In this document: positions 16,770-40,829 of the stretch, one piece after another
Numbering within the stretch: position 1 is the stretch's first letter
Layout of the letters: every line of letters starts with the position of its first letter
Source: a virus
Lineage: Duplodnaviria > Caudoviricetes
Length of the DNA stretch: 64,000 bases
IMG/VR virus record: IMGVR_UViG_3300021255_001866
Span: 25,314 to 89,313 of that record
Direction: 5' to 3' (one strand)
Notes under the pieces: generated by a model
What the model was told of the DNA's origin: nothing
Seen by the model: the letters and a program-made list of their open reading frames with translations, nothing else
Database searches by the model: none
Position numbers and translations under genes: made by a program

Positions 16770-16772
16770 TTT

Positions 16773-16824
16773 TGACTTTTTAATAAATCTATAGTATAAT
16801 ATATATAGAAAATGAGAAAGGGAG
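16773..16824 (+). promoter_or_regulatory. Representative of a repeated sigmaA-like promoter/leader motif
   Basis: TTGA(T/C)T-N16/17-TATAAT-ATATATAGAAAAT(G/A)AGAAAGG; copies with -35 at about 16773, 18823, 20436, 21381, 24284, 26645, 27946, 29472, 34195, 37182 and 38379. Confidence 0.8.
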
Positions 16825-16831
16825 CTAAGAA

Positions 16832-17035
16832 ATGAGAGATCCTAAACGTATTCCACGTATCCTTCATGAAATTCAACGTGTATGGGAAGCCTTTCCCGAT
16901 TTGAGACTTGGACAACTTCTACTCGATGCTTATGATGATGCTCTTTATTATATCGAAGACGAAGATCTTGTACATGAACTACTAGAATTTGGATATAAAT
17001 ATGCAAAGGAGACCCTTGATGGCGAAAAGAGATAA
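16832..17035 (+). CDS. Small hypothetical phage protein
   Basis: MRDPKRI...VWEAFPDLRLGQLL; follows a promoter and RBS. Confidence 0.65.
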   Translation: MRDPKRIPRILHEIQRVWEAFPDLRLGQLLLDAYDDALYYIEDEDLVHELLEFGYKYAKETLDGEKR

Positions 17036-17167
17036 AAACCGTTCGTATAATGAATGGGAAGACGATTGGAAAGATCCCGAAGAAGAGCAGAAGAAGAAAC
17101 GTGAAAAAGAACGCCATGATCAGAGAACTCGTAAATATATGGCAGCAGATGATTGGGATGATATAGA

Positions 17168-17455
17168 ATGAAGAGAGTCGGACCGGAAGATATTATCCAG
17201 ATCAATGAAGCATATCTGGCATGTGGTACTTATAGTGGCGCGGCGGCAGCTACTGGATGGTCAGCTTCAACGGTAAAGAAATATGTTGATCCAAATTATA
17301 AAAGTCAACCAGTAATAACAGAAGATGAAGTTGATATTGAACTTCCACCGCTCTCTCAAGTTGCCGAATGGCTGCCGCCTTGGTATGATATTACTTGTTT
17401 GACGCCACAAGAAGAGAAAGAAATCAAACAGCTCTGGAAGGAGATGTTGGTGTGA
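17168..17455 (+). CDS. Small HTH-containing protein
   Basis: TYSGAAAATGWSASTVKKYV helix-turn-helix pattern. Confidence 0.55.
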   Translation: MKRVGPEDIIQINEAYLACGTYSGAAAATGWSASTVKKYVDPNYKSQPVITEDEVDIELPPLSQVAEWLPPWYDITCLTPQEEKEIKQLWKEMLV

Positions 17456-17766
17456 AAACCTATTTTGAATTTCGTGAGACAAGTAATAATGGTTGGACTA
17501 TTTGTCCAGTTCATAAAGAGTGGATTGGAGAAGATTTCTCAAAGCCGATAAAAGGTAGTTTTAATTTGTTAGCTTGTAGGGTGTCTGGACTTAGCTGGCC
17601 GCAATGGCTTCGGTATTGTCGTCAAAATGGTGCTTCTTTATATGGGAAGGGACATAAATATGTAGTGGCTGTATGGAGAGAACCGAATAAAGCTTTCCTT
17701 ACAAAACTTAACCAGCGGGCTAATGACCTTGCGAAGATTATTGATTTTAAGGAGTTGAATCTATAA
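17452..17766 (+). CDS. Hypothetical protein
   Basis: GTG start overlapping the upstream stop; intact ORF. Confidence 0.6.
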   Translation: MKTYFEFRETSNNGWTICPVHKEWIGEDFSKPIKGSFNLLACRVSGLSWPQWLRYCRQNGASLYGKGHKYVVAVWREPNKAFLTKLNQRANDLAKIIDFKELNL

Positions 17767-17900
17767 TGGATAAGCAGATCTTTAAGAAGACTGGCGAAGA
17801 ACTTCAAGAGTTTTTGAATTTTAGGAAGAGAGCCAATAGAGTACCAAGTAAGAAGGGTAAAGGTTCATATAATCGTAAAGATTTTAAGAAGGGAGAATAG
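17766..17900 (+). CDS. ArfA-like (alternative ribosome-rescue factor-like) 44-aa basic peptide
   Basis: MDKQIFKKTGEELQEFLNFRKRANRVPSKKGKGSYNRKDFKKGE carries the KKGKGSY.RK signature of ArfA; start overlaps the upstream stop (TAATG). Below the ORF-track size cutoff. Confidence 0.6.
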   Translation: MDKQIFKKTGEELQEFLNFRKRANRVPSKKGKGSYNRKDFKKGE

Positions 17901-17901
17901 G

Positions 17902-18114
17902 ATGGATGTAAAGCTATGCCCGAGATGTAATAAGTTGCCAAATATTAAGGTGAAGCATAAACTTAGATATATGTGTGTTATGAGTTGTGGTACACTTGGG
18001 TGCAAGTTGTATTATCCCATTATTACACTTGGTTTTAATAAAGAGAAGACAATGAAGAAGGCGGCCGAGCGATGGAATGCTGCGGTTGATAGATATGATG
18101 ATTTAGTTCTATAA
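17902..18114 (+). CDS. Zinc-ribbon protein (Lar-like)
   Basis: CPRC...CGTLGC and a C-terminal AAERWN. Confidence 0.55.
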   Translation: MDVKLCPRCNKLPNIKVKHKLRYMCVMSCGTLGCKLYYPIITLGFNKEKTMKKAAERWNAAVDRYDDLVL

Positions 18115-18129
18115 AGGAGAGTGATGTAA

Positions 18130-18617
18130 ATGTCCTTGAAGATTCTCTTCTTGGATGTTTAGCCCGAAAGGGCAAATAAGTAGATGGAGTATTAAATAAT
18201 AATCGAACTCGTACTGTAACATTCGATGGATGGCGTTTTGTTGATGATTATCTAGTTGAACGTTTAAAACAAATAATTGATGCCACGGGCGCCAAGATCG
18301 TATTAAGTTCTACATGGCGGGATGGTTGGAATAGAGAAGATGAGTCTAAGAATGAACCATTCTTTAACCAGCTCAGAGATAAACTCAAAGAGTATGGAAT
18401 GGAAATTTGGGATGCTCTTCCAATACCTGTGCGGTCAAGTCGTGGCATTGCTATTAATGAATGGTTTAAATTACATAAAGATTTAAGTATCGAATCTTTT
18501 GTAATTTTAGATGATTGGTATGACATGGGTATATATAGAGATTATCTTATTCAAACAAATGGCGGTATTGGCCTCACCGATGAAGATGTACAAGAAGCTA
18601 TTAATATGCTTAATTAA
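18130..18617 (+). CDS. HAD-family phosphatase (RNA-repair-like HAD) interrupted by a 23-nt coding gap at 18160-18182
   Basis: MSLKILFLDV (18130-18159) continues as DGVLN... from 18183 in another frame; later motifs IVLSSTWR and FVILDD are typical of this HAD family. Confidence 0.8.
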
Positions 18618-18630
18618 CAGGTGGTATAGA

Positions 18631-18813
18631 ATGACTATTATTGTTGAAGGCGATTTAAATCGTCTTAAAGAAATTAAACGATTTAATTGCCGTAAGTGTG
18701 GTTGTATTTTTGATGCTGAAAAAGAAGAGTATAAAGTATCAAGCCAGTATAACGAAGAATATTATTCGTGTATCTGTCCAACTTGCGGCAATAATGTGTA
18801 TATTCCGCACTAA
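18631..18813 (+). CDS. Small zinc-ribbon protein
   Basis: CRKCGC...CPTCG. Confidence 0.55.
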   Translation: MTIIVEGDLNRLKEIKRFNCRKCGCIFDAEKEEYKVSSQYNEEYYSCICPTCGNNVYIPH

Positions 18814-19162
18814 AGTAAAAATTTGATTTTTTCTGAATTTTAGTGTATACTATATATAGAAAATGAGAAAGGGGGATAAATAAAATGTACGATGATTTTG
18901 ATACCATGCAGCAAATTGAAGAAATTATTCCCGATGAATATGATGATTGGTGTCGTTGGGTATATGGTGGTGCTTATCGAGAAGAAGAAGATTAAATGAA
19001 AGAATTTTTATTTAAAGTTTCAACTTATCATTATGTTGCTGCTGAAAATCTTGATGAAGCATATGAGAAATTAGAAACAGAAATTATAAACGAATATGAT
19101 CATGTTGTAGATGTTGAAACACTTGATGAATATGAACTATAAGATTTAAAATAAGACATATA

Positions 19163-19231
19163 TTGGTTTGGTGTAGTGGAGATGCACGGCCTTCGCAAAG
19201 GGCAGGGATTAGTTCGATTCTAATAACTGAT
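19163..19231 (+). tRNA. Degenerate tRNA-Cys(GCA)-like gene
   Basis: T-arm ATTAG-TTCGATT-CTAAT and loop TC-GCA-AA; weak acceptor stem, no CCA. Confidence 0.45.
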
Positions 19232-19239
19232 AAAAATCC

Positions 19240-19880
19240 TGAGTCACAAGGAAGTAAAAGATATGTAGACGGTCGCTAGTGTGTAGAATTCTAGATGCGG
19301 TGTCACAAGCATAAATACCACACAACGAATTGATGGTTGTTTTAAGTAGTTTTTCTTCCTCGATATGAAAAAGGTCAAAGTTTAAGCGGCCAGCAACTGT
19401 CGCTATAAAAATAAGTTAATAAGCCAAAGATGAAGTAAGATGTTGGTTCGAATCCAATTCTGCCGAAAAGTGGCAGGTAGTTTAATTGGTAAAACGGCGA
19501 AGAATCTCAATTGGTGTCTCACACAATCCTTGTGGCGAGACAAGTGTGATAAGTCCAGTTACGGCGGTAGAGAAAGATACGCCACATCTATGCTCTACTT
19601 AAAAGGACGTGTAGGGTACCTCCACGTTGGTGCGTCTGGACGGAATTAGGAGCGCAAACTAATAAACCGAGAACTAACACCCGAGATAGTAAAAGCATAA
19701 TATAGCGTAAAAGCTTATTCATTCCTCTTCAAGTATAGAAGGCGGATACATTATCCGATACAACAGTACCTGGACGTGCACATAGAATTTCGGCCATAAT
19801 CGAGATGGAGGGAGCCGTGGAAGCGAATGAAGCTATCGAATTGATGTACTGGGGTGACGGGCAGTATAATCACACCGTCA
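19240..19880 (+). ncRNA. Candidate large structured ncRNA containing a circularly permuted tRNA-like module (19438-19500)
   Basis: No credible ORF; many hairpins; a T-arm, then a loop-closed acceptor stem, then a D-arm. Confidence 0.5.
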
Positions 19881-19884
19881 ATAT

Positions 19885-19961
19885 GCTCGGTTCGAATAAT
19901 AGGTCTAGTTCACGAGGCCTTCAATCTCGTAATAGAAGTTCGAGTCTCCTACCGAGTACCA
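19885..19961 (+). tRNA. tRNA-Glu(TTC), atypical C33
   Basis: Full cloverleaf GCTCGGT/ACCGAGT-A-CCA; loop CC-TTC-AA. Confidence 0.7.
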
Positions 19962-19989
19962 TAAAATGGAAATATAAGGAAATAGATAT

Positions 19990-20065
19990 GGCGGGTGGGA
20001 GGTTAGTATTTCAACCAGCCTCATAAGCTGGGTAAACCGACTGCAATTGTCGAGACCCGCAACCA
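19990..20065 (+). tRNA. tRNA-Met or Ile2 (CAT)
   Basis: CCAGC-CT-CAT-AA-GCTGG; G1.A72 mismatch; non-canonical T-loop TGCAATT; encoded CCA. Confidence 0.8.
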
Positions 20066-20203
20066 GTTACCATTTATTTCAACTCCTTTCTTTGATAAGA
20101 CTCACCTACGGGGAACCATCTCACTATTACTGACCAAAAGGTAATGGCGGCGGAGATGGCTGTGAGAAAATACGCTACCCTTTTTATTTAATTGGTAATT
20201 TAA

Positions 20204-20255
20204 AAGGCACATGCAGCAATTTTAGTGGGTAATCGCAAACCTTTTCGTGTCTTGT
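20204..20255 (+). ncRNA. CAGCAA-handle RNA copy A
   Basis: AAGGCAC-ATG-CAGCAA...GTGTCTT-GT terminal stem. Confidence 0.6.
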
Positions 20256-20672
20256 TTTTCTCTATATTCAAACGATGGCTTCTGAATTCCGAGGTCCACC
20301 ACTGCGTATCGAACGGTCAAAAAGCGCGGGAACTCCAGGGAAAGAACTCTGCGGATACGGGTTGTGCCGTGCAAGTTACCTCCTCAAGAGAAGGAAGACT
20401 ATTTTCCTTAGTAGTCTTCCTTCTTTCTTTTTATTTTGACTTTTTAGAAAATTTTTGGTATAATATATATAGAAAATAAGAAAGGGATAAATAAAATGAA
20501 GGTTTATTTGCTCATTCAAGACCAAGCTCTATGCGTACAAGGGTATGAAGTAGGCATAGAAAGCTATGTTTGCGGGGTATACTCCACGCGTCAGAAAGCA
20601 GCTAAGGCAATGTACGAAAAAGACGATGACCCTTATGTGGATTATCACATTATTGAGAAAGAGGTCGTATAA

Positions 20673-20855
20673 ATGACTCTTGTGGATATTAAAGATTTGA
20701 GGCTAAAAACTGGATGTTCTTTGGGGGATGCTCGCGAAGCAATTAAATATGCAGAAGAGCATGAAGAATGTACTCCTTTAGGATATTTAAAAGCTAAATA
20801 CTTTGCTGTTAAAATTGAGCCTTTTGAGAGAAAAGTGAGGTTGTTTTCAAAATGA
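20673..20855 (+). CDS. Small protein resembling the EF-Ts N-terminal / L7-L12 C-terminal helical motif
   Basis: IKDLRLKTGCSLGDAREAI aligns by eye with VKELRERTGAGMMDCKKAL. Confidence 0.45.
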   Translation: MTLVDIKDLRLKTGCSLGDAREAIKYAEEHEECTPLGYLKAKYFAVKIEPFERKVRLFSK

Positions 20856-21026
20856 ATTATGTTATAAGTGAAGAAAGGCTTAGAGAACTTCTTGAGGAAG
20901 AGGCTCGTTATATTGCTCTTGAAAATGGTGGAGTAGATAATTGGGAGTGGTATGGTGCATCAATTCAAGAATATCTTAGTTTGTGTGAAGTAAATTCTAT
21001 TTTTGAAATAGCAAAAGAAAGGATGA

Positions 21027-21344
21027 ATGAATTTGAAGCTCTGGATTGATGACGTGCGCCGGCCGCCTTCTACGGATTGGATTTGGATTAAAACAGTTAA
21101 AATGGCTAAATCTGTTATTTGGTACTATGAGCATCAATATCAGGATGATACTATTACGATTGACCTTGATCATGATGCCGGCGACTTTACCAAGGACGGT
21201 GGCGACTATATTGAGATTCTGAATTGGCTTGAACGCGAAGGCATTGTTGATACTGGGTACTTTTTTCATATTCATTCTATGAATGTAGTTGGAGTTCAAA
21301 ATATGCGCGCGATTATTCAGCGTAATGGATGGAGAGAGATCTAA
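21027..21344 (+). CDS. Cyclic-phosphate-processing receiver-like protein
   Basis: KLWIDDVR.PP, DLDHDAG and IHSMN.VG..NM motifs. Confidence 0.7.
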   Translation: MNLKLWIDDVRRPPSTDWIWIKTVKMAKSVIWYYEHQYQDDTITIDLDHDAGDFTKDGGDYIEILNWLEREGIVDTGYFFHIHSMNVVGVQNMRAIIQRNGWREI

Positions 21345-22961
21345 AGAGAACGCTTAATGTGTTCTCTTTTTATTTTATATTTGATTTTTTAGAAAATTTA
21401 TGCTATAATGTATATAGAAAATAAGAAAGGGGATAATAAAATGGCTTGGGAAAAGATGGCACATTTGATTGAAGTAAATTATGGTGGTCATGTTGATTGG
21501 GATGAAGAGTTTTTTGAGTGTCCCGAGTGCGGTGAGCCTATCTATAAATGTGATTGGCAAGAAGAAGACTATTTTATGGGACATCCGTATTATGGTACAT
21601 TTTATTGTCCGGTTTGTGAGAGTGTGATTGATTAAATGAAACATTATACAATTGAATTTGGTGAAGGGGCTTAAGTATGGCTGTGTACTTTAAAGGCATG
21701 GAGATGCCGAAGCGTTGTAGTGAATGCTTTTTCGCAAAGCTAAGCCCGACAGGAGAAAGCCTTATCTGTGACCGTATATTATCAAAAGTCCCATGGGATG
21801 AAAGGCCGTTTGATTGTCCTTTCAGCGAAGTTCAAGAACCACATGGGCGGCTGATTGATGCAGATGCACTACCAATAAGTACGGCTGTATCACTTGATGG
21901 GAAGCCCTATCAATATGTTCACATCGATAATATTAAAGCTGCTCCAACTATTATTTCAGCAAGTAAAGAGGGCGAGTGATGGAGCAGTTTTGTGGATGCT
22001 GGATGACTTATCCTAGATGCAAGGAAGATTGCTATTGGTATGAAGAATGGCAAGACATGGGAGCTCACATTCCATACTGTCGGTGTAAGAAAAGTGATTT
22101 TATTGAGCCAAAAGATTGTGAGAATTGTGAGCAATATCACAGCAAGTACAAACCTACAAACGCCGACCGCATCCGCGCCATGAGCGACGAGGAACTGGCT
22201 GGGTGGCTTGCAGATCATCCCGTAGTTTCGGAGTATGACGAAAACAATCCGCAACATAAAGCGTGGCTCGACTGGCTGAAAGAGGAGGCTGAGTAATGAC
22301 TAATGCCGACAAGATCAAGCAAATGAGCTTCGTTGAACTTACACAATTCCTTGCAGAAAATTTCGATTGCGAATGTTGCCCTGCGAAAGTCGGGGATGAT
22401 TGCCAATACTGTCTGCAAGCAGTTGCAGATTGGCTAAAGCAAGAAATAGATTAAATTTTAAGGAGGGCTGCGGCGTGTCTCGTTCATATAAAAAGCATCC
22501 ATATTGTACTGATGGTCATCGCCGCAGTACGAAGGAAACAAAACAGATTGCTAATCGTTGCGTGCGCCGCCGCAACAAACGGATAACTCTTGGATATTTA
22601 ACAAGAGAATCACGGTATAGAGACATTTTAACTCTTGATGGTATGTCATATAAGAAATTTTGGTGTTCTTGGGATATTCATGATTATATTAGTCGTTGGA
22701 CTAAAGCAGAAGCAATCCATGAATGGGAGCATCCACATTGGCAATATTGGGAATATAGAGATGAATGGTGGCATACTTGGGAAGAATATAAGACAAAAGA
22801 AGAAATGGAACAGTATTGGGCTAAGTGGTATAGGAGAAAGTAATGAAATTTGTATCTGATATAAAATATTGTCCAAAATGTGGTAGGCCTATGCATTTTA
22901 CTAATATTGGTACTTTTTATTATTGGATTTGTTTTATATGTATGGTGGAAGAGGATGAAAA

Positions 22962-23522
22962 ATGATTGAAGGGCTTTATAAATGTTTTGAACATTGGCAT
23001 AGAGAGGGTACGGTTTGGCTTTACAGTGACACCCATTTTAATGAAGATAGCGATATTCGTGTGGCATTTCCAAATCGCCCTTCTGCCGAAGAACAAATCA
23101 AACTAATTAATTCTAAGGTCGGCCGCAAGGATCATCTAATTCTTCTTGGAGATGTTGGAGACATTGAGTGCGCGCGAAAGCTCAGAGGACATAAGATTCT
23201 TATTAAGGGGAACCATGATAGTGGTCTTTCTAATTATGAAGATGTATTTGAAGAAGTATATGGCGGCCCGCTCATGATTGGAGAACGTATTATTTTGTCT
23301 CATGAGCCGCTGGCCATTAGCTGGGCTTTTAATATTCATGGGCATACTCATATGAGTACCTTTGATCGCCCTGGTCATCTTTGTGTATGTAGTGATGTAA
23401 TTCATTATATGCCTGTAAACTTTAATCAGTTTGTAAAGAGCGGCCGGCTCAAAGAAGTTATGTCACTGCATCGTTCTACGATTGATAAAGCAACAGAAAG
23501 AAAGCAGAAAAGGAGTAAGTAA
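22962..23522 (+). CDS. Calcineurin-like metallophosphoesterase
   Basis: SDTHF, LGD, GNHD, SHEP, IHGHTH. Confidence 0.85.
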   Translation: MIEGLYKCFEHWHREGTVWLYSDTHFNEDSDIRVAFPNRPSAEEQIKLINSKVGRKDHLILLGDVGDIECARKLRGHKILIKGNHDSGLSNYEDVFEEVYGGPLMIGERIILSHEPLAISWAFNIHGHTHMSTFDRPGHLCVCSDVIHYMPVNFNQFVKSGRLKEVMSLHRSTIDKATERKQKRSK

Positions 23523-23523
23523 T

Positions 23524-24294
23524 ATGGAACAAAGAATTGTGCGCCCAAATATGGCAGAACATTATTTTTTTTATAATATGAGTTTTCCTCCTTATCGGCA
23601 ATTTATGCTAGTACCCGTCGGTAGTTGGAATTATAATTGTGCAGATGAACATAGTGATGTAGATACTAAAGCAATCTTTGTTCCTTCTATTTATAATGTG
23701 ATTGAAGATAAATGTGAATCATATACTCATTTTCTTCAAAATGAAGAACATATTAGTTGCCATGATATTCGCAATTATATGAAAAGTCTTGTTAAAGGGA
23801 ATCCACAGTTTTTGGAAACTCTTTTTTCTAAATGGGGAGATTTAAATACTGGGTATTATGGAGAAGAAATTCACAATTTAATGTATATACGTGAAGATAT
23901 TGCACGTTGTAATCCAAATAATACTATGCGTGCACTTCTTGGTATGGCTGACCGCAACTATAAACTTTGTATGTCGCGGAGTGAAGAAGATCATCTTGGT
24001 AAATGGGTTTATCAACTTGTGCGCATTGAAGAGTGTATGAATAAGTATTGCCAAGGTAGAAGTTTTGAAGAATGTCTTCATACGGATAAACGTGATTTTT
24101 TACTTTCGTTAAAAAATAATGAATATAATAAAGAAGTATTAACTGCTAATGCAGAAGCTTTTATTATGCTTTGTCATAGTCATTATGATAGTTTTATCTT
24201 TATGAATAATAAAGAAGATAAATGGACTCAATATAAAGTAGAACAAATTGTAATGCAAGTGATGCGGAAATCCATTGAAAAATTTGATAAGTAA
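23524..24294 (+). CDS. Pol-beta superfamily nucleotidyltransferase (RlaP-like)
   Basis: GSWNY....EHSDVDTKAIFVP and LVKGNPQFLETLF; adjacent to the RNA ligase. Confidence 0.75.
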   Translation: MEQRIVRPNMAEHYFFYNMSFPPYRQFMLVPVGSWNYNCADEHSDVDTKAIFVPSIYNVIEDKCESYTHFLQNEEHISCHDIRNYMKSLVKGNPQFLETLFSKWGDLNTGYYGEEIHNLMYIREDIARCNPNNTMRALLGMADRNYKLCMSRSEEDHLGKWVYQLVRIEECMNKYCQGRSFEECLHTDKRDFLLSLKNNEYNKEVLTANAEAFIMLCHSHYDSFIFMNNKEDKWTQYKVEQIVMQVMRKSIEKFDK

Positions 24295-24549: not shown

Positions 24550-25764
24550 ATGCTTAATAAGGATAATCAGAGAGAACTTTGTTATGTAGTGACTATTGAT
24601 GAAATTCGTCCTATTCCTAATTATGATCGTGTCGAGCATGCTCGTGTTGGTGGTTGGTGGGTGATTGTTCAGAAGGGTCAGTTTAACGTTGGCGATCCCG
24701 CGATTTATTTTGAGATTGACTCCAAGGTTCCGTCTGATAAGGAATGTTTTGCATTTCTTGAGAAGCGGAACTATAAGGTAAAAACGCTTCGTATGTGTAA
24801 GGTTATAAGCCAAGGGCTTCTTATGCACGCTGAAGATTTCGAATGGACTATTAATGAGTGGGGCGATGCGATTGTTGATGAAAAAGGCGATCGTCATTAT
24901 CCCATAGATGAGTCTCGTTTCCTTACCGAAAAACTTGGTGTAACTTATGCTGACGACGAAGATAATAAACGCAAAGCTCCTTCTGTAGATAAGTATAAAA
25001 AGATGGCTCAGCGGCATCCTAATATCTTTAAGAAGAAGTGGGCGCGCTGGCTGATGAAGCGTGAGTGGGGCCGGAAGTTGATGTTTGTATTCTTCGGTAA
25101 GAAGAAAGACAAAAAGAACGGCTGGCCTAGTTATATTGCACAAAAAACTGATGTTGAGAGAATCCAGAATTGTATATTTTTACTAAAAGATAAACAGCCT
25201 TATGTCGCCAGCGAAAAAGTCGACGGATCGAGCTTCTCCGCTATGGCTGAACGTGGAAAATTTAATAAGATTAAATATTATGTCTGTTCTCGTAATGTAG
25301 TCTTTGATACTCCTGATGCTCCTTGCTTCTATGATAGTAATATTTATTTTGAAGCTTGGAATAAGTATAATCTGAAAGAAATTATTACCAATATTCTTAA
25401 TGATTATAATCTTCCTAATGTTGCTATTCAAGCAGAGATTTATGGTGATGGAATTCAGAAGCGCAATTATTCTCTTCATAATGGAGAGCATCATATGGCA
25501 GTATTTCATATTGTTTCTAATGGTGTAAAGTTCCCTATGGATAAAACTGTAGAGATCTGTGAGAAATATGGACTTCCTCATGTTCCTATTGTAGATGACA
25601 ATTATATTCTTCCTGATACTATTGATGAACTTCAGACATATGTTGAAAACGCGCAGTCAATGATTGATGGAAAACCGCGCGAAGGCATTGTTTTTTATGA
25701 TAAGGAAACTGGTCAGCAATACTTTAAGTTTGTGTCTCCAGATTTTCTTCTTAAATTTCATTAA
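24550..25764 (+). CDS. ATP-dependent RNA ligase (Rnl2 / DRB0094-like) with N-terminal OB-fold
   Basis: EKVDGSS (motif I), QAEIYG, VFHI, REGIV and FKFVS; N-terminus with YFEIDS. Confidence 0.88.
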   Translation: MLNKDNQRELCYVVTIDEIRPIPNYDRVEHARVGGWWVIVQKGQFNVGDPAIYFEIDSKVPSDKECFAFLEKRNYKVKTLRMCKVISQGLLMHAEDFEWTINEWGDAIVDEKGDRHYPIDESRFLTEKLGVTYADDEDNKRKAPSVDKYKKMAQRHPNIFKKKWARWLMKREWGRKLMFVFFGKKKDKKNGWPSYIAQKTDVERIQNCIFLLKDKQPYVASEKVDGSSFSAMAERGKFNKIKYYVCSRNVVFDTPDAPCFYDSNIYFEAWNKYNLKEIITNILNDYNLPNVAIQAEIYGDGIQKRNYSLHNGEHHMAVFHIVSNGVKFPMDKTVEICEKYGLPHVPIVDDNYILPDTIDELQTYVENAQSMIDGKPREGIVFYDKETGQQYFKFVSPDFLLKFH

Positions 25765-26567: not shown

Positions 26568-26909
26568 TTATCAGATATTCTGCGGTTGTTTCTGGATTGG
26601 AATAGTCATAATGGCAATTGTATATAAGGATGGAGAAAAGTAATTTGACTTTTCTCCATTTTTATATTATAATATATATAGAAAGTATGAAAGGGGATCT
26701 ATAAAATGACCGTTTATGAAAAGATTGATCGTGTTCTGAAACAGCATGAAAGCTATAAGTATTGTGAGCGATCATTGGATTCTATTGCTGACTATATTGA
26801 CTGGGCATGGAAGTGGCGAAAAATTAGTAGAGAAGAAATGGAGAACGCTGCGGATAGAGTTTGTGAGTTGTATGCGCGAGAATTAAAGAAGGAAAGGATT
26901 TAAGATTTG

Positions 26910-27416
26910 ATGGATAATAAAACTCTTTGGATTATGTGCGGGCCGCCAGCTTCGGGGAAAAGTTTTTATGCCACTCATACGTTACAGTGCGGCGCTGGCT
27001 GGAGTTATGTTTCGCGTGATATAATTCGATTCTCTATTGTGGGAGAAGAAGAAGAATATTTTTCACATGAAAAAGAAGTGTTTGATACTTTTGTTGAAAA
27101 TATTGTAGCCAGGCTTAATACTGAAGGTATTTATAACGTTATTGCTGATGCTACTCATTTGAATTGGGTTTCTCGTAGAAAACTTATTAAAGCAGTAGAA
27201 TATTATCTTGGTTTTGGTTTTCGAGATTTGAATATTATCCCGGTCTTTATGAATACTCCTATTGAAGTAATTGAAGAAAGAAATTCAAAACGGACTGGCC
27301 GCGAACGCGTACCAAGTAAAGTGTTGAGAGACATGAATTTTAATTATGAAGATCCCAAAACTGATCCTTATAATTATAATGGAATATTGTATGTAAATTA
27401 TTATGGAAGTGTATAA
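26910..27416 (+). CDS. P-loop kinase, polynucleotide-kinase-like
   Basis: GPPASGKS, VSRD.IR, DATHL...R, RN..R.GR..VP. Confidence 0.8.
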   Translation: MDNKTLWIMCGPPASGKSFYATHTLQCGAGWSYVSRDIIRFSIVGEEEEYFSHEKEVFDTFVENIVARLNTEGIYNVIADATHLNWVSRRKLIKAVEYYLGFGFRDLNIIPVFMNTPIEVIEERNSKRTGRERVPSKVLRDMNFNYEDPKTDPYNYNGILYVNYYGSV

Positions 27417-27949
27417 TGATATATCTAACTTCTGATTTTCATTTTGGTCATGACCGCGAGTTTATTTATGGTCCACGTGGATATAGTAATATATATGAAG
27501 AAGCAGAAGATCTAATTCAGAAATTTAATAGTGTTGTAACGTGGGAAGATACAGTCTATATTCTTGGTGATTGTATGCTGAATAATGATGAATTTGGACT
27601 AAAGTGTCTGCGACGGCTCAATGGATTTAAATATCTTATTGTAGGTAATCATGATACAATTGCACGAGTAATGAAGTACCAAGATAGTGGTATCTTTACG
27701 TCTATCGATTACGGCGGCCGCCTACATTATAATAACTGGACGTATCTACTTTCACATTATCCGCAGATCACAGAAAATTATCAAGATCGTCATAAGGTTA
27801 TAAGTCTTTGCGGCCATTCCCATACAAAAGATCCTTTTCTTCATTGGGATAATGGACTTATTTATCATGTTGAAGTAGATGCACATGATGGCTACCCAGT
27901 AAGTATAGACCAAATTGAAAGTGATATACGGAAGAAACTTAATATTTGA
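27416..27949 (+). CDS. Calcineurin-like metallophosphoesterase
   Basis: SDFHF, LGD, GNHD, SHYP, CGHSH; coupled to the kinase. Confidence 0.85.
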   Translation: MIYLTSDFHFGHDREFIYGPRGYSNIYEEAEDLIQKFNSVVTWEDTVYILGDCMLNNDEFGLKCLRRLNGFKYLIVGNHDTIARVMKYQDSGIFTSIDYGGRLHYNNWTYLLSHYPQITENYQDRHKVISLCGHSHTKDPFLHWDNGLIYHVEVDAHDGYPVSIDQIESDIRKKLNI

Positions 27950-30762: not shown

Positions 30763-30912
30763 AAGACAGTATTACAGCAAATTTGTTTTCTGAACAAGTT
30801 ATTAGAATTGATCTTGTTTTGCTTGAGATCTTTTAAGTGGCTGAGTTTATAGTGGTTCTAATTTTCAAAGCCTACCGGTTCAACGGTGTTAAAAAGGAAC
30901 TTACTGTCTTGT
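30763..30912 (+). ncRNA. CAGCAA-handle RNA copy B
   Basis: AAGACAGTA-TTA-CAGCAA...TACTGTCTT-GT. Confidence 0.65.
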
Positions 30913-30916: not shown

Positions 30917-31469
30917 GGCTCCGTAGTTCAGCAACGAAGAATACCTGACTGTGTAAGAATATTTTTGAATAGGTTGATAAAATGAACACCTCTCAACTAG
31001 GAAACATTGGAGAAGTACGTGTTTTAAGTGAATTTGTAAAATTAGGAATACCTTGTTATTTACCTTATGGTGATGGTAATAAATGCGATTTAATTGCAGA
31101 TTTTAATGGAAAACTTAATAAAATTCAAATTAAAACTACAGAAAAATTAAATATTAATGGAGCGATGGAGTGGAAAGTTACCAGACAAGAAGGATTTCAT
31201 GGAAATCGTGTCCAATATAATAAAGAAGATATAGACTATTTCGCTTTTTATTGTATAGAAACTGATATAGTTTGTTTAGTTCCATTTGATGAAAATTTTC
31301 CTAGTACAACTTTATCAATTCGTATGGATAATTATGTTGGTAATAGATTAAAAACCATGCGATTTGTAAAAGATTATCAAATTAGTAATTTTATTAATTC
31401 ATAAGGTCATACCTTATTTCTTACACCACACTCAGGAGGTCGTGGGAGCAAAGCCCACCGGAGTCGCCA
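30917..31469 (+). tRNA. tRNA-Asp(GTC) split by a 476-nt intron (30953-31428)
   Basis: Exons 30917-30952 and 31429-31469 join to give CCTGA-CT-GTC-AC-TCAGG; G73; CCA. Confidence 0.85.
30982..31404 (+). CDS. PD-(D/E)XK endonuclease inside the tRNA-Asp intron
   Basis: GNIGE...PYGD...DLIAD...KIQIKT...IDYFAFY, resembling intron-associated PD-(D/E)XK nucleases. Confidence 0.85.
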   Translation: MNTSQLGNIGEVRVLSEFVKLGIPCYLPYGDGNKCDLIADFNGKLNKIQIKTTEKLNINGAMEWKVTRQEGFHGNRVQYNKEDIDYFAFYCIETDIVCLVPFDENFPSTTLSIRMDNYVGNRLKTMRFVKDYQISNFINS

Positions 31470-31584
31470 ACTGAGGAGAGTAAGCGCTCGAATTGACGAG
31501 CTACTACACACGACAGGGTCAGTTGTGATTCTCCGCATAGGAGTAGTTGCCCTATGTACCTATATAAATAGCAACTGATTTTTT

Positions 31585-31663
31585 GGGGAATGGGACTGCT
31601 TGGAGTGGTCATCCGCCTTGCACGCGGAAAAACAGATGGGGTCGGTGCCCATATTCTCCACCA
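31585..31663 (+). tRNA. tRNA-Ala(TGC)
   Basis: TCCGC-CT-TGC-AC-GCGGA; G3.U70; CCA. Confidence 0.85.
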
Positions 31664-31665
31664 TA

Positions 31666-31757
31666 GAGATACATACAGCAATTATAAAATGGTTAAAGAA
31701 ATGTTCTGCTAAAACGTTATCGAAAAGGTTCAAATCCTTTAAATTTCTGTATCTCGT
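31666..31757 (+). ncRNA. CAGCAA-handle RNA copy C (contains a Ser-GCT anticodon arm and a T-arm)
   Basis: GAGATACA-TA-CAGCAA...ATGTT-CTGCTAA-AACGT...AAAGG-TTCAAAT-CCTTT...TGTATCTC-GT. Confidence 0.7.
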
Positions 31758-31770
31758 ATTAAAAATATAT

Positions 31771-31845
31771 TGCTCAGTAGCTCAGAGGCAGAGCGCACGC
31801 CTGTTAAGCGTGATGTCGAGATATCGTAATTCTCCTGGGCAGCCA
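31771..31845 (+). tRNA. tRNA-Asn(GTT)
   Basis: CACGC-CT-GTT-AA-GCGTG; G73; CCA. Confidence 0.88.
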
Positions 31846-31847
31846 TA

Positions 31848-31976
31848 AAGACGTATACAGCAAAATCTTCTTTAAGAAGGATATGGGTTCGATTCCCATA
31901 ATTGGAGTGCTCCAATTTAGCCAAACGGTAAGGCAACAGTCTGATAACTGTGAATAAAATCTTATATACGTCTTGT
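31848..31976 (+). ncRNA. CAGCAA-handle RNA copy D (permuted T-arm / acceptor / D-arm)
   Basis: 10-bp stem AAGACGTATA/TATACGTCTT; inside ATGGG-TTCGATT-CCCAT, AATTGGA-GTGC-TCCAATT, GCC-AAACGGTAA-GGC. Confidence 0.75.
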
Positions 31977-31982
31977 TAATAT

Positions 31983-32118
31983 GCGGGCGTGGTGGAATAG
32001 GTAGACACCACAGACGCTAGTGTCCAGTGACAATTAGCTGGGGCAGCACCAGTGTCTAGCACCATTAAAATCTGTTGGGTTTTAGCCCGTGCCGGTTCAA
32101 GTCCGGCCGCCCGCACCA
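31983..32118 (+). tRNA. tRNA-Leu(TAA) split by a 49-nt intron (32016-32064)
   Basis: Removing GCTAG...CTAGCACCA gives ACAGA-CT-TAA-AA-TCTGT with a long variable arm, A73 and CCA. Confidence 0.85.
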
Positions 32119-32313
32119 AAATAAAAGGAGAATAAAATGACAATTCATAGATGCGATTTGTGTGGAAAAGAAGTTGGCGTATGGTTTAGTATCACTGCTA
32201 AAATAGATTCTACTTATCAAGCGACAAATGTTTATGATTTACTAAAATATCAAGGTAATTATGATATTTGTAGTAAATGTTTTAAGAGTTTGATTGATGA
32301 AAGAGTTAAATAA

Positions 32314-32388
32314 GCGCCACTAGTTCAGAAGTAGAACACTTGCCTTTTAAGCAAGGAGTGCGGGGAGCATTACCCCGGTGGCGCACCA
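32314..32388 (+). tRNA. tRNA-Lys(TTT)
   Basis: CTTGC-CT-TTT-AA-GCAAG; T-loop AGCATTA; CCA. Confidence 0.88.
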
Positions 32389-32482
32389 GGTAGGTCGTGC
32401 AACTATTGTGTACGTAGGCGAACGATACGGCATAAATGGTAAAATGGAGTTCGAATGACGCACGATAAATCCCCTACCACCA
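32389..32482 (+). ncRNA. tRNA-like RNA with acceptor stem and ACCA end
   Basis: GGTAGG.../...CCTACC-A-CCA directly abutting tRNA-Lys; no standard anticodon arm. Confidence 0.5.
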
Positions 32483-32485
32483 TTT

Positions 32486-32573
32486 GCCGTCGTACCCTAA
32501 TGGTAAGGGCCTGGCCTTGAAAGCCATGAGTAGGTGAAAGTCTATCGGGGTTCGAATCCTCGCGGCGGCGCCA
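32486..32573 (+). tRNA. tRNA-Ser(TGA)
   Basis: Loop CT-TGA-AA, long variable arm, G73, CCA. Confidence 0.85.
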
Positions 32574-32582
32574 TTTAAATAA

Positions 32583-33132
32583 GCCGGAGTCCCATAGTGG
32601 TCAATTGGAACGGTTTTGTTTACTGAATTTATTTATTATGGATTTATTAAGTTCTAAGCAAAAAGGGAATTTAACTGAGCTACAATGTATTACTAGCTTT
32701 TATGAATTAGGGTATACTGTGTCAATTCCTTATGGAGAAAATTCCCGTTATGATTTTATTGCGGATATTCATGGAAAATTAATTAAAGTTCAAGTTAAAA
32801 CTTCTTCTGAGAAAGATGAAGGAAAAACTTTTGAATTTTCTTGTCGAAGCACTAGAGTAAACGCTCAAGGCAATATTTCTAGGCAATATACAGCAGATGA
32901 AATTGATTATTTCTGTACTTATTTTAAAAATTAGTGCTATTTAATACCTATTTCGGAATGTTCTAGATCTAAAAAACTTAGATTAGAAGCTCCTATTAAT
33001 AATCAAAAGGTGGGGATTAATATGGCAAAAGATTATGAATTAATAACCCAACTTAATAAATTAAAAGGATAAACATTGGTAAACAAAGCCGTCGCGCAAG
33101 CTTCGTGAGTTCGAATCTCACTTCCGGCTCCA
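32583..33132 (+). tRNA. Class II tRNA, most likely Ser(TGA), split by a 466-nt intron (32619-33084)
   Basis: Exons 32583-32618 and 33085-33132 give ACGGT-TT-TGA-AA-GCCGT; other registers would give TCA or TGT; U73 is atypical. Confidence 0.7.
32638..33072 (+). CDS. PD-(D/E)XK endonuclease inside the second tRNA intron, 1 in-frame TAG
   Basis: KGNLTE...PYGENSRYDFIAD...KVQVKT...IDYFCTY; TAG at 32932, TAA at 33070; paralog of 30982-31404. Confidence 0.85.
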
Positions 33133-35503: not shown

Positions 35504-35621
35504 CTACAGCTTTACTGAGAATTCCTTATTGGGAACGTGATAATTTAAGTTTAGAATTATTATTTAATAATAAGTATATTATATAACTACGGTCTTGACT
35601 AAGACTAAGAAGGAGAGTTTT

Positions 35622-37127
35622 ATGAATAATTTTATGAAGGCCCTTAAGAATGAGAATAACTTTGGTTATACTGAAAACGGCGCTGTTAAGAGAATGTCCA
35701 CAATGAGTGGTCTGCTTGACCTTTTTGGGATGGGTGCGGCCTATCGTAATCGTAGCGATACAGATTGTATTTTTCTTTTCCAGAAAGCATTTAAGGAGAA
35801 TCCAGTCTATGCGCTGAAGTGCCTTTTCTACATTCGTGATGTGCGCGGTGGCCAGGGTGAGCGTAGATTCTTCCGTGTTGTAACGAAGTGGTTGGCTGAT
35901 CATGAGACAGATGCGATGGCGCGCAATCTTCAGTATGTGCCCGAGTTTGGACGTTGGGATGATCTTTATGAGTTCGTCAATACCAAACTTGAAGCGGCAG
36001 CCTTCAAAGTAATGGAAAACCAGATTCGTCTGGATATCCAGTGCAAGACTCCTTCGCTTCTTGCGAAGTGGCTGAAGTCTGAGAATACTTCCAGTAAGGA
36101 TTCTCGTGCGCTTGCGAACAAGACTCGTATGGCATTCGGTCTTGATCATCGTCAGTATCGTAAGATGCTTTCGGCGCTTCGTGAGAGAATCAATGTGGTT
36201 GAGCGTCTTATGAGCGCTGGTAAGTGGGATGAAATCGAGTTCGATAAGATTCCTTCTAAGGCTGGTTTCCAGTATCGCAATGCTTTCGCGCGGCATGACA
36301 TTGAGCGTATGAAGTCTGAAAAGCAGGTTCGTACTTACGAAGATTTCATGAAGGATGAGAAGACTACGGTTAATGCCAAGGACCTTTATCCATATGAAGT
36401 CGTAGAAAAGGCTTATAACCTTACTCAGGGTGGTTATTGGAGTCCGCGTAAGAATGCCCCACTGGATAACACAGAGCGTCTTGCAGTTAATAAGTATTGG
36501 GATAATCTGAAGGATTATTTCAATGGCTGTTCTCTGGATGCACTTTGTATGATAGATACCAGTGCTTCTATGTGGGGTAGACCAATTCATGTTGCGATTT
36601 CTCTTGGGCTTTACGCTGCTGAGAGGGCGCGCGGGCCATTTGCTGGACACTATATCTCTTTCTCTCGTAGGCCACAGCTCGTAGCTACTGATGGTGTGGA
36701 TTTTGTCGATAAGGTCGAGCGCATTTATCGTACAAATATCTGTGAGAATACCAATATCGAAGCTGCTTTTGATATGCTTCTTGATACTGCTATCAAGAAT
36801 CGGTGTTCGCAGAGCGATCTTCCGAAGTCTATTGTGGTGATTTCCGATATGGAGTTCGATTATCAAGTCTCTACCAGTTGTAATGATAAAGAAACTCTTA
36901 TGGAAGGCATCCGTAGAAAGTGGCAGCGAAATGGTTATGAGATGCCAGAGCTCGTTTTCTGGAGTGTCGATAGCCGGCAAGACAATATCCCCATGAAGGT
37001 CGAAGGCGGCATTACAATGGTTAGTGGATTTAGTCCAGTAACTTTTGAGATGCTGATGAAGGGTAAAACCGGATATGATCTCATGATGGATAAGCTGAAT
37101 GAAGAGCGTTATGCTTGCATTCAGTAA
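35622..37127 (+). CDS. DUF2828-like protein (TROVE/Ro60-like helical domain plus vWA domain)
   Basis: TENGA, FYIRDVRGGQGERRFF, YVPEFGRWDDL, LAKWL; MIDAS motif DTSAS; ISDMEFD. Uses codons typical of highly expressed genes. Confidence 0.85.
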   Translation: MNNFMKALKNENNFGYTENGAVKRMSTMSGLLDLFGMGAAYRNRSDTDCIFLFQKAFKENPVYALKCLFYIRDVRGGQGERRFFRVVTKWLADHETDAMARNLQYVPEFGRWDDLYEFVNTKLEAAAFKVMENQIRLDIQCKTPSLLAKWLKSENTSSKDSRALANKTRMAFGLDHRQYRKMLSALRERINVVERLMSAGKWDEIEFDKIPSKAGFQYRNAFARHDIERMKSEKQVRTYEDFMKDEKTTVNAKDLYPYEVVEKAYNLTQGGYWSPRKNAPLDNTERLAVNKYWDNLKDYFNGCSLDALCMIDTSASMWGRPIHVAISLGLYAAERARGPFAGHYISFSRRPQLVATDGVDFVDKVERIYRTNICENTNIEAAFDMLLDTAIKNRCSQSDLPKSIVVISDMEFDYQVSTSCNDKETLMEGIRRKWQRNGYEMPELVFWSVDSRQDNIPMKVEGGITMVSGFSPVTFEMLMKGKTGYDLMMDKLNEERYACIQ

Positions 37128-40083: not shown

Positions 40084-40159
40084 ACCCCCATAGTATAATG
40101 GTTAGTACAGGAGGCTCTAACCCTCTAGGTCTTGGTTCAATTCCGAAGTGGGGGCGCCA
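40084..40159 (+). tRNA. Amber-suppressor tRNA (anticodon CTA), probably Gln-inserting
   Basis: GGAGG-CT-CTA-AC-CCTCT (anticodon 40117-40119); D-stem GTAT/GTAC; 1.72 mismatch; G73; encoded CCA. Confidence 0.92.
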
Positions 40160-40184
40160 AATATTTAGACAGGAGTTGATTATA

Positions 40185-40829
40185 TTGGCATACGTCTATA
40201 AAATTATAAATGATATAAATGATAAAGTATATATAGGGTTAACTTATTATAGTATTTAGTCTCGTTGGCAAATACATTTAAAAGATAGAAAGAGATTTGA
40301 ATGTAAGGATAGGCCATTATATCGAGCTATGAATAAATATGGTATAGATCATTTTTTAATTTAGGAAATTGAAGAATGTTCAGATGAAGTAGTAAATGAA
40401 CGAGAAAAATATTGGATACAATTTTATAATAGTTATTATGATGGATATAATGCTACATTTGGTGGAGAAGGACGGAGAGAATATGACGCTTTAATTTTTG
40501 TTGAAGATTATTAGATTGGTTTAAATGAAACAGAAATTGCAAGTAAGTATAAGTGTGATATGACTACTGTAAGGAGAGCCCTTAATCTTTATAATATTTA
40601 TCCAGATAAGGAATAGCGAAAACGTGTGAAAGAATTGTATGGTAAAAAATGTTGTGGTATTAAAGATGGTATAAGTATTGAGTTTTTAACCATGATGGAT
40701 GCAGCACGTTTTATTAAAGATAATAATTTATCGTGTGATACTCTTGCGGGGATTCAAGCGCATATTGGGCATGTGTGTAATGGTAAAAGAAAAACTGCCT
40801 ATGGTTATAAATGGCAATATATAAATTAA
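40185..40829 (+). CDS. GIY-YIG homing endonuclease with NUMOD-like C-terminus, 4 in-frame TAG
   Basis: TTG start after AGGAG; AYVYKI.N.IN.KVYIG...GYNATFGGEG...CNGKRKTAYGYKW. Confidence 0.85.

What the first reader, a model, noticed from the sequence alone, without database searches (positions are those of the whole stretch)
30917..33132. Three tRNAs split in the anticodon loop by introns whose ends mimic a tRNA acceptor stem
Seen: the tRNA-Asp intron 30953-31428 is GTAAGAA...TTCTTAC-A-CCA, a perfect 7-bp stem plus discriminator plus CCA. The tRNA-Leu intron 32016-32064 is GCTAG...CTAGC-A-CCA (49 nt, no ORF). The tRNA-Ser-like intron 32619-33084 is TTTACTGA...TTGGTAAA-C, a stem plus one unpaired base. 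The two long introns are almost entirely a PD-(D/E)XK ORF with only about 12-30 nt of flank, sit between anticodon positions 35 and 36, and do not end in G. They therefore cannot be group I introns, and I could not draw a bulge-helix-bulge motif. Known: a stem with 3' RCCA is a minimal bacterial RNase P substrate cut 5' of the first stem base; RNase Z cuts after the discriminator of CCA-less precursors; both leave 3'-OH and 5'-P ends that Rnl2-type ligases join. Inference: a new intron type that is excised by posing as a tRNA and sealed by the phage ligase, with endonuclease-bearing versions spreading by homing.
Basis: partly seen in the sequence, partly recalled or inferred. Interest (0 to 1): 0.92.

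Follow-up and report, generated by a model that had tools for sequence, protein, structure and literature searches.

The report
Ribozyme-less tRNA-mimic introns in phage tRNAs
Three tRNA genes of an uncultured rumen phage are each split in the anticodon loop by an insert with no self-splicing RNA, whose ends fold into a helix with a short 3' tail like the end of a tRNA; two inserts carry a homing-endonuclease gene, so this is probably a barely described, protein-dependent kind of phage tRNA intron, but splicing itself has not been shown.

Summary
Insert-less alleles fix the borders at 30953-31428 (tRNA-Asp GUC, 476 nt), 32016-32064 (tRNA-Leu UAA, 49 nt) and 32620-33085 (466 nt).

Each insert starts at the first base of a terminal helix. 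The 3' tails are 7 bp + ACCA, 5 bp + ACCA and 7 bp + ACA. The ACA tail is not a discriminator. It is the reverse complement of the anticodon, a rule kept in 12 related inserts (GUA in a tRNA-Val UAC).

Both long inserts encode I-Ssp6803I-family homing endonucleases (PF11645). No group I, group II or small ribozyme is detectable, no bulge-helix-bulge can be drawn, and the phage record has no EndA, RNase Z or RtcB. It does carry an Rnl5-type RNA ligase plus kinase and phosphoesterase end-healing genes.

Relatives hold bona fide tRNA-shaped inserts and classical group I introns in the same tRNA-Leu.

Best reading (0.45): mobile introns cut by host tRNA-end enzymes and resealed by the phage ligase. 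No RNA evidence was obtained. 'Not spliced' (0.32) remains open.

The scan has found this class before on other DNA. In print I found only the 'enigmatic introns' of Lak phages.

The parts
30917..30952 (+). tRNA-Asp(GUC) exon 1, ends ...CCTGA-CTGT (position 35)
   Evidence: ARAGORN; syntenic empty allele L007
30953..31428 (+). 476-nt insert in tRNA-Asp. P1 5' strand is 30953-30959 (GTAAGAA). A 7-bp hairpin at 31401-31417 abuts the P1 3' strand at 31418-31424 (TTCTTAC). The tail ACCA is 31425-31428.
   Evidence: variant with tail GCCA in L110-112
30982..31404 (+). Homing endonuclease ORF (140 aa), PD-(D/E)XK, I-Ssp6803I family
   Evidence: PF11645 E 1.6e-21; 284 homologs
31429..31469 (+). tRNA-Asp exon 2 (CAC-TCAGG...GCCA)
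31983..32015 (+). tRNA-Leu(UAA) exon 1, ends at C32
32016..32064 (+). 49-nt ORF-less insert: GCTAG...CTAGC + ACCA
   Evidence: identical copy in L007/L089
32065..32118 (+). tRNA-Leu exon 2 (TTAAAA-TCTGT...ACCA)
32583..32619 (+). tRNA-Thr-type (UGU, long variable region) exon 1, ends ...TTTGT (position 36)
32620..33085 (+). 466-nt insert. P1 is TTACTGA (32620-32626) / TTGGTAA (33076-33082). The tail ACA (33083-33085) is complementary to the anticodon UGU. P2 is TTTAT/ATAAA.
32638..33072 (+). Homing endonuclease ORF (144 aa) with an in-frame TAG at 32932-32934 read as Gln
   Evidence: PF11645 E 3.4e-31; PDB 2OST E 2.6e-10; Gln at this position in the L082 homolog
33086..33132 (+). tRNA-Thr-type exon 2 (AA-GCCGT...TCCA)
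24550..25764 (+). RNA ligase: N-terminal OB fold plus adenylyltransferase, Rnl5-like. Candidate sealing enzyme.
   Evidence: PF21189 and PF09414; Naegleria RNA ligase 5e-19
26907..27416 (+). P-loop polynucleotide-kinase-like protein (AAA_33)
27416..27949 (+). Metallophosphoesterase (candidate 3'-end healing). A second one lies at 22962-23522.
23482..24294 (+). RlaP, a nucleotidyltransferase of RNA-repair operons
21027..21344 (+). cREC_REC 'cyclic-phosphate processing' receiver domain protein
   Evidence: PF20274 E 1e-15

Best explanation
These are mobile, ribozyme-less introns of phage tRNA genes.

The transcript of each insert closes on itself in a terminal helix that begins at the first intron base and leaves a 3-4 nt 3' tail. 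For the Asp and Leu inserts this copies a tRNA acceptor end (helix + RCCA; in Asp with a stacked hairpin).

Proposed steps:
1. Host RNase P cuts at the 5' border.
2. A 3'-end endonuclease cuts after the tail.
3. The two halves stay held together by the acceptor and anticodon stems as a tRNA nicked in its anticodon loop.
4. The phage RNA-repair enzymes (Rnl5-like ligase, with kinase and phosphoesterase if the ends need healing) reseal it.

The I-Ssp6803I-type endonucleases spread the long versions into empty tRNA genes by homing.

Shown: borders, end structures with covariation, endonuclease family, empty alleles, absence of ribozymes, presence of ligase and healing genes.

Inferred: every RNA step (both cuts, the enzymes, the ligation).
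For: - Exact borders come from empty alleles. Removing the inserts gives clean Asp(GUC), Leu(UAA) and Thr(UGU) cloverleafs.
- Flush helices are unlikely by chance.
- RCCA tails: ACCA twice here; GCCA in L110-112, with the helix and hairpin stem kept; 7 bp + GCCA in the L039 tRNA-Ile intron, which scores as tRNA (31.4 bits). L004 has a full nested tRNA (45.8 bits). The window's own tRNA-Ile is the empty ortholog of the L039 gene.
- In 12 distinct relatives of the third insert, P1 keeps pairing through compensatory and G.U changes, so the constraint is on RNA, not DNA repeats. The tail tracks the anticodon (ACA/UGU, GUA/UAC). Every interrupted tRNA keeps a fully paired anticodon stem of different sequence.
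- The window's Asp allele differs from the empty L007 allele only by two compensatory pairs in the anticodon stem.
- The ORF-less inserts have no selfish drive, yet the Leu one is 49/49 identical in a second phage whose flanks differ by about 5-8%.
- These are the only Asp, Leu and Thr genes in the 89-kb record.
- The ligase and healing cassette lies 5-9 kb upstream.
- No ribozyme was found, with positive controls for group I in relatives.
Against: - There is no RNA evidence. The joined forms occur in DNA or in contigs with a different downstream flank, so they are empty alleles.
- The third insert lacks CCA, and its tail and the bases before its 5' border are base-paired, a poor RNase P/RNase Z substrate.
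- A cut exactly after CCA is not what canonical RNase Z does. I recall it only for Thermotoga RNase Z and E. coli RNase BN, and did not check this here.
- Rnl5 ligases are known as duplex-nick sealers, not anticodon-loop sealers (from memory).
- EFP01, with a related insert, encodes RtcB and no ATP-dependent RNA ligase. This points to 2',3'-cyclic-P/5'-OH ends.
- Related endonuclease genes also sit free-standing next to tRNA-Asp, or in a decayed tRNA-Asp, so they do not need a spliced host gene.
- An earlier check in this scan priced 'proteins join the halves' at 14/100 for a similar insert.
Confidence: 0.45

Rival explanations
1. The inserts are not spliced. They are selfish endonuclease cassettes (and their ORF-less remnants or tRNA-like riders) that knock out dispensable phage tRNA genes. 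The conserved end structures serve the cassette itself, for example to release and stabilise the endonuclease mRNA from the polycistronic tRNA transcript via RNase P or another nuclease.
For: - No spliced RNA was seen.
- Empty and filled alleles coexist in one sample.
- heg1 homologs sit free-standing upstream of an intact tRNA-Asp (L113-115). In L116-118 they sit inside a tRNA-Asp that has lost its anticodon arm but kept acceptor, D and T arms plus GCCA.
- L106 has the same insert in what looks like a bare anticodon-arm mimic.
- Repeated homing into fresh alleles could explain intact exons.
- An earlier scan check gave low odds to the joining step.
Against: - ORF-less inserts (49 nt here; 68 and 71 nt in relatives) have no drive, yet are kept inside otherwise perfect tRNAs.
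- The tail covaries with the exon's anticodon, which is hard to explain if the exon is discarded.
- The interrupted genes are the sole Asp, Leu and Thr genes of the record.
- Compensatory changes occur in the anticodon stem of interrupted alleles.
Confidence: 0.32
2. The inserts are spliced, but by an unidentified endonuclease that leaves 2',3'-cyclic phosphate and 5'-OH ends, recognising the helix and tail. The ends are then healed by the phage kinase and phosphoesterases and sealed by the ligase (heal-and-seal, as in T4 tRNA repair or yeast Trl1), or joined directly by RtcB in phages such as EFP01.
For: - The window phage has a full healing set: kinase, two to three metallophosphoesterases, a cREC cyclic-phosphate domain and RlaP.
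- EFP01 carries RtcB (198 bits) and no Rnl.
- The third insert forms a continuous rod, unlike a tRNA end.
Against: - No candidate nuclease was found: no EndA and no BHB geometry.
- The healing cassette is equally explained as defence against host anticodon nucleases.
- True tRNA-shaped inserts in relatives would be cut by RNase P anyway.
Confidence: 0.15
3. The inserts self-splice through an unrecognised small ribozyme.
For: None positive. The only ground is that the end structures are conserved.
Against: - No Rfam family matches, even at E up to 5.
- Only 31-53 nt of non-coding sequence remain in the long inserts, and the short one is 49 nt in total.
- The borders lack the group I U/G rule.
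- The fold of the 49-nt insert is no more stable than shuffled sequence (z 0.13).
Confidence: 0.03

Closest known systems
Group I intron of the Synechocystis PCC 6803 tRNA-fMet gene encoding I-Ssp6803I (PDB 2OST; PMC3384342)
   Same: A mobile insert in a tRNA anticodon loop that carries a PD-(D/E)XK homing endonuclease of the same Pfam family (PF11645). That enzyme targets the pseudo-palindromic anticodon-arm DNA.
   Different: There is no ribozyme core (Rfam negative). Only 31-53 nt are non-coding, and there is no U...G border rule. Relatives of this phage do carry true group I introns in tRNA-Leu(UAA), but at 34|35 rather than 32|33.
'Enigmatic' tRNA introns of Lak megaphages (Devoto et al. 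2019, PMC6784885)
   Same: Phage tRNA genes of TAG-recoded gut phages interrupted in the anticodon loop. One intron in tRNA-Thr(TGT) 'itself may encode a tRNA'. Sequences are identical across cohorts, and borders were fixed by alleles with and without the insert.
   Different: That paper gives no end rule, no endonuclease-bearing versions, no link to RNA ligase and no mechanism. Here there are RCCA-ended and anticodon-paired types, two of them with homing endonucleases.
Archaeal/eukaryal tRNA splicing (bulge-helix-bulge, EndA, RtcB or Trl1)
   Same: A protein-dependent cut-and-rejoin route in the anticodon loop. Some archaeal introns carry homing endonucleases. The heal-and-seal chemistry matches the phage's kinase, phosphoesterase and ligase set.
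   Different: No 3-4-3 bulge-helix-bulge can be drawn, the positions vary (32|33, 35|36, 36|37), and there is no EndA in the record.
Phage T4 tRNA repair (PrrC-nicked tRNA-Lys healed by Pnkp, sealed by Rnl1); recalled knowledge
   Same: A phage kinase/phosphatase plus RNA ligase reseal a tRNA broken in the anticodon loop.
   Different: In T4 the break is made by a host defence nuclease and nothing is removed. Here a segment would have to be excised first, and the ligase is Rnl5-like.
Minimal RNase P substrates (helix + 3' RCCA, external guide sequences), and RNase Z/BN cutting after CCA in Thermotoga and E. coli; recalled knowledge
   Same: A 7-bp helix with 3' RCCA starting at the cleavage site (Asp, Leu; L039 Ile).
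   Different: The third insert has ACA paired to the exon. The Leu helix is only 5 bp. None of this was tested enzymatically.

Membership tests
Group I intron | Conserved catalytic core (P3-P9; Rfam RF00028) | tested here: not met
   No hit at the gathering score or at E up to 5. The positive control works on relatives' tRNA-Leu introns, 62.8 and 50 bits.
Group I intron | 5' exon ends in U paired to G; intron ends in G | tested here: not met
   The introns end in A (ACCA, ACCA, ACA). Leu exon 1 ends in C.
Group II intron | Six-domain ribozyme with domain V, several hundred nt of non-coding RNA | tested here: not met
   No Rfam hit. Non-coding sequence is 49-53 nt or less.
Bulge-helix-bulge (archaeal-type) intron | Two 3-nt bulges separated by a 4-bp helix carrying the splice sites | tested here: not met
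   Checked by inspection with the verified borders. Asp gives a 2x5 internal loop beside the helix, and the third insert gives a continuous rod.
Bulge-helix-bulge (archaeal-type) intron | Splicing endonuclease EndA available | tested here: not met
   PF01974 is absent from the 89-kb record, while the control rings in 4 archaea. The host is unknown and the record is 73% complete.
I-Ssp6803I family homing endonuclease (PF11645) | Sequence membership and catalytic D...QxK motif | tested here: met
   77 and 108 bits against a 26-bit cut-off. The 2OST alignment covers the YD..D and VQVK motifs.
I-Ssp6803I family homing endonuclease (PF11645) | Presence/absence polymorphism at the same site (homing) | tested here: met
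   Empty alleles were found. DNA cleavage activity was not tested.
tRNA acceptor-end mimic (RNase P-type substrate) | Helix of about 7 bp starting at the cut site | tested here: met
   Asp 7 bp, third insert 7 bp (2 G.U), Leu only 5 bp.
tRNA acceptor-end mimic (RNase P-type substrate) | 3' RCCA tail, unpaired | tested here: inconclusive
   Asp and Leu have ACCA, and in Asp the first two tail bases can pair with exon 1. The third insert has ACA fully paired to the anticodon.
tRNA acceptor-end mimic (RNase P-type substrate) | T-arm-like hairpin stacked on the helix | tested here: inconclusive
   Asp has a 7-bp hairpin directly abutting the 3' strand, but with a 3-nt loop, not a T loop. The third insert has none. 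The Leu fold is ambiguous.
tRNA acceptor-end mimic (RNase P-type substrate) | Cleavage by RNase P / RNase Z | not testable with these tools
   This needs enzyme assays.
Lak-type 'enigmatic' phage tRNA introns | Anticodon-loop insert in a phage tRNA, no known ribozyme, may fold as a tRNA, empty alleles exist | tested here: met
   the paper was read.

The most novel reading that the evidence does not exclude
This is a further class of intron. The insert poses as a tRNA end, so the cell's own tRNA-maturation nucleases excise it. A phage RNA-repair ligase then rejoins the tRNA. Endonuclease-bearing copies spread by homing, which would make tRNA-processing enzymes a splicing machine in bacteria and their viruses.
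Probability: 0.3. Interest if true: 0.9.

Novelty: new variant of a known kind. Interest (0 to 1): 0.8.

Why it matters
As far as I know and could find in the papers searched, every tRNA intron described in bacteria and phages is a self-splicing group I intron. Protein-dependent tRNA splicing is held to be an archaeal and eukaryal trait.

This window gives three verified, ribozyme-less inserts in one tRNA array. They are of two structural types, and they sit beside a complete RNA heal-and-seal gene set. A cultured phage (Enterococcus phage EFP01) has a related insert.

That makes testable the question of whether tRNA-end enzymes plus a repair ligase can act as a splicing system. It also bears on why large phages carry RNA ligases. 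If the inserts are not spliced, they show instead a widespread family of homing endonucleases that switch phage tRNA genes off.

Tried and rejected
- Group I, group II and small-ribozyme searches of the inserts: nothing found.
- BHB drawing with the verified borders: not possible.
- RNase III: the offsets of the two cuts are 4, 4 and 3 nt (1 nt in L082/EFP01), not the 2-nt stagger of RNase III.
- DNA transposon with terminal inverted repeats: rejected, because the helices keep G.U pairs and compensatory changes.
- Val(CAC) reading of the first tRNA (ARAGORN), and Ser(UGA) or Asn(GUU) readings of the third: rejected by the empty alleles.
- Phage-encoded EndA, RNase Z-like and RtcB: absent from the record. 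Twenty further ORFs scanned in Pfam gave no nuclease candidate.
- RNA runs X19 and X20 had almost no cover of the three genes and no joints. X17 is labelled metatranscriptomic but behaves like DNA, and its joined Asp contigs continue into a different downstream flank. There is therefore no evidence for or against splicing.
- Searches for variants of the 49-nt Leu insert in IMG/VR and JGI metagenomes found only the L007 phage plus one chance match.
- An exon pattern for Asp found nothing in IMG/VR.
- A nested-tRNA scan with ARAGORN over the loci found none.
- Paper searches for a described mechanism found none.
- The idea that the intron endonuclease itself cuts the RNA rod that mimics its DNA site was considered. 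It is kept only as a long shot, since it is a metal-dependent DNA enzyme family and the ORF-less inserts would need it in trans.
Full report
**Setting**

The window is bases 25314-89313 of an 89-kb IMG/VR virus record, estimated 73% complete.
- Its nearest relatives are uncultured phages of 60-240 kb, found through the RNA ligase.
- Runs that hold it are animal-gut and bovine/sheep gut metagenomes.
- Reading TAG as Gln opens many frames, and a tRNA with anticodon CUA lies at 40085.

**The observation**

ARAGORN with introns allowed finds three interrupted tRNAs. Rfam's tRNA model spans the Leu gene with its insert. Automatic junctions were ambiguous (Val or Asp; Asn, Ser or Thr), so I fixed them with insert-less alleles.
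- **Leu.** Seven IMG/VR orthologs read CAGAC|TTAAAATCTGT. The insert is therefore exactly 32016-32064.
- **Asp.** L007 has 93-95% identical flanks and the same gene order, and carries an uninterrupted tRNA-Asp reading CTGT|CAC. A joint 30952|31429 also occurs in run X17. The insert is 30953-31428.
- **Third gene.** Joints 32619|33086 occur in X17 and in the DNA run X1. The insert is 32620-33085 and the loop is TTTGTAA.
- After removal, all three fold as clean Asp(GUC), Leu(UAA) and Thr(UGU).
For the third he was one base off, which changes the anticodon, the position (36|37) and the end structure.

**The ends**
- Asp: GTAAGAA/TTCTTAC (7 bp) + ACCA. A 7-bp hairpin directly abuts the 3' strand.
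- Leu: GCTAG/CTAGC (5 bp) + ACCA.
- Third: TTACTGA/TTGGTAA (7 bp, two G.U) + ACA.
- A helix flush with the 5' end and a tail of at most 4 nt is found in 0.7%, 5% and 0.8% of random window segments of equal length. A terminal CCA has p about 0.009.

**What the inserts carry**

The two long inserts are nearly all ORF, with 29+24 and 18+13 nt of flank.
- Both ORFs belong to PF11645, the family of I-Ssp6803I.
- The best solved match is 2OST, with the catalytic D and QxK motifs aligned.
- I-Ssp6803I is a tetrameric homing endonuclease that reads the pseudo-palindromic anticodon-arm DNA of a tRNA gene (PMC3384342).
- The second ORF has an in-frame TAG where a homolog has Gln.

**What they are not**
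- No group I, group II or small ribozyme is found at gathering or relaxed thresholds. The same tool does find group I introns in the orthologous tRNA-Leu of relatives, at 34|35.
- No bulge-helix-bulge can be drawn.
- The record has no EndA, RNase Z-like protein or RtcB.

**Relatives show two designs**

*Type A* ends in RCCA.
- L110-112 hold the same Asp insert (endonuclease 94% identical). The tail is GCCA, the helix is unchanged, the hairpin loop is changed, and the exon anticodon stem differs by two compensatory pairs.
- L039 has a 71-nt insert in tRNA-Ile(UAU): TATGGCG/CGCCATA + GCCA. It scores as a tRNA (31.4 bits). The window's own tRNA-Ile is its empty ortholog.
- L004 has a complete tRNA (45.8 bits) following the same Ile exon 1.
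- L024 has a cloverleaf-shaped 68-nt insert in tRNA-Asn (z -3.0).

*Type B* is the family of the third insert. There are 12 distinct examples from rumen, human-gut and other metagenomes.
- All lie at 36|37 of tRNA-Thr(UGU), or of tRNA-Val(UAC) in one case.
- P1 is 7 bp, with compensatory and G.U changes.
- An A/CA internal loop is followed by a second helix.
- The 3-nt tail is the reverse complement of the anticodon (ACA, with ATA and TCA variants; GUA for UAC).
- Together with U32/U33 and A37/A38, this makes one rod continuous with the anticodon stem.
- Every host tRNA keeps a fully paired anticodon stem of different sequence.

Earlier agents of this scan described both designs on other DNA. 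I reached the same rules from this window's relatives.

**Mobility**
- Filled and empty alleles coexist.
- heg1 homologs also occur free-standing just upstream of an intact tRNA-Asp (L113-115).
- They also occur inside a tRNA-Asp that has lost its anticodon arm but kept its top half and GCCA (L116-118).

**Candidate rejoining enzymes**

Five to nine kb upstream lie the following genes:
- a cREC cyclic-phosphate domain protein;
- two metallophosphoesterases;
- RlaP;
- an RNA ligase with an N-terminal OB fold, closest to Naegleria RNA ligase (Rnl5);
- a P-loop kinase.

This is the chemistry of T4 tRNA repair. Enterococcus phage EFP01, a cultured phage, has a related endonuclease insert in tRNA-Asp (CTGT|...G|CAA). 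It encodes RtcB but no ATP-dependent RNA ligase.

**Mechanism**

I commit to protein-dependent splicing guided by the intron's own end structure, at confidence 0.45.
- For type A, RNase P cutting at the 5' border is close to unavoidable for the tRNA-shaped members, and plausible for helix + RCCA.
- The 3' cut after CCA and the ligation are inferred.
- For type B the tRNA-end model fits poorly, because the tail and the exon end are paired and there is no CCA.
- The healing genes here, and RtcB in EFP01, leave room for a nuclease that makes cyclic-phosphate ends (0.15).
- The main rival is that nothing is rejoined and the structures serve the endonuclease mRNA (0.32). Against this rival stand the ORF-less inserts, the tail-anticodon covariation, the sole-copy status of the three genes and the compensatory exon changes.
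- No RNA evidence could be obtained. True RNA runs barely cover the genes, and the joined contigs are DNA alleles of relatives.

**Literature**

Devoto et al. 2019 report 'enigmatic' introns in Lak phage tRNAs, one of which may encode a tRNA, with borders corrected by empty alleles. They give no mechanism. Seven other searches found nothing closer.

I therefore file this as a new variant of a barely described kind. The mechanism, if shown, would be new.

Noticed in passing
window 30763-30912, 31666-31757, 31848-31976; 35595-37127: Stem + ACAGCAA elements sit between the tRNAs. One holds a permuted tRNA-like module and gets a sub-threshold YrlA hit (20.4 bits); L085 has one at 33.7 bits. A Ro60-like gene (DUF2828/DUF7788 + vWA) lies downstream. 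These look like phage Y RNAs with a Ro partner, as another first-reader note says.
   Followed up: partly
window 32932-32934; 40085-40155; 40098-40829: An in-frame TAG in the second endonuclease ORF aligns with Gln in a homolog, so its translation needs the phage suppressor tRNA(CUA). That tRNA gene is overlapped or followed by a GIY-YIG endonuclease ORF.
   Followed up: partly
window 31429-31469, 31585-31663, 31771-31845, 32314-32388: Several array tRNAs (Asp, Ala, Asn, Lys) have T loops without the usual TTCRA motif (for example AGCAAAG, AGCATTA, ATCGTAA) and D loops without GG. Their elbow would be atypical.
   Followed up: no
L116-L118 (about 330-470 and 820-870 of L116): An endonuclease gene 78% identical to the Asp-insert ORF replaces the whole anticodon arm of a tRNA-Asp-like gene. 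That gene keeps its acceptor, D and T arms and GCCA, so this is a tRNA-shaped carrier of an mRNA.
   Followed up: partly
L106 640-1200: A type B insert sits in a 9-bp hairpin with the loop TTTGT|AA that does not seem to belong to a full tRNA (judged by eye).
   Followed up: no
L084, L085, L092, L093: The orthologous tRNA-Leu(UAA) of related phages carries classical group I introns at U34|A35, one with an ORF-sized extension (L085). The same gene therefore hosts two unrelated insert types.
   Followed up: partly
L024 1882-2465; L039 1918-2029; L092 2850-2956: ROOL RNA (328 bits) and drum RNAs lie in the tRNA arrays of related phages.
   Followed up: no
L082 14586-14684: A 99-nt tRNA with the anticodon loop CTCTAAA (CUA, amber suppressor) and a long variable arm. 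ARAGORN misreads it as intron-bearing or as having a 4-base anticodon.
   Followed up: no
window 16000-24000: Long open frames in this stretch increase more when TGA is read as sense than when TAG is. The cause was not examined and could be chance in AT-rich DNA.
   Followed up: no
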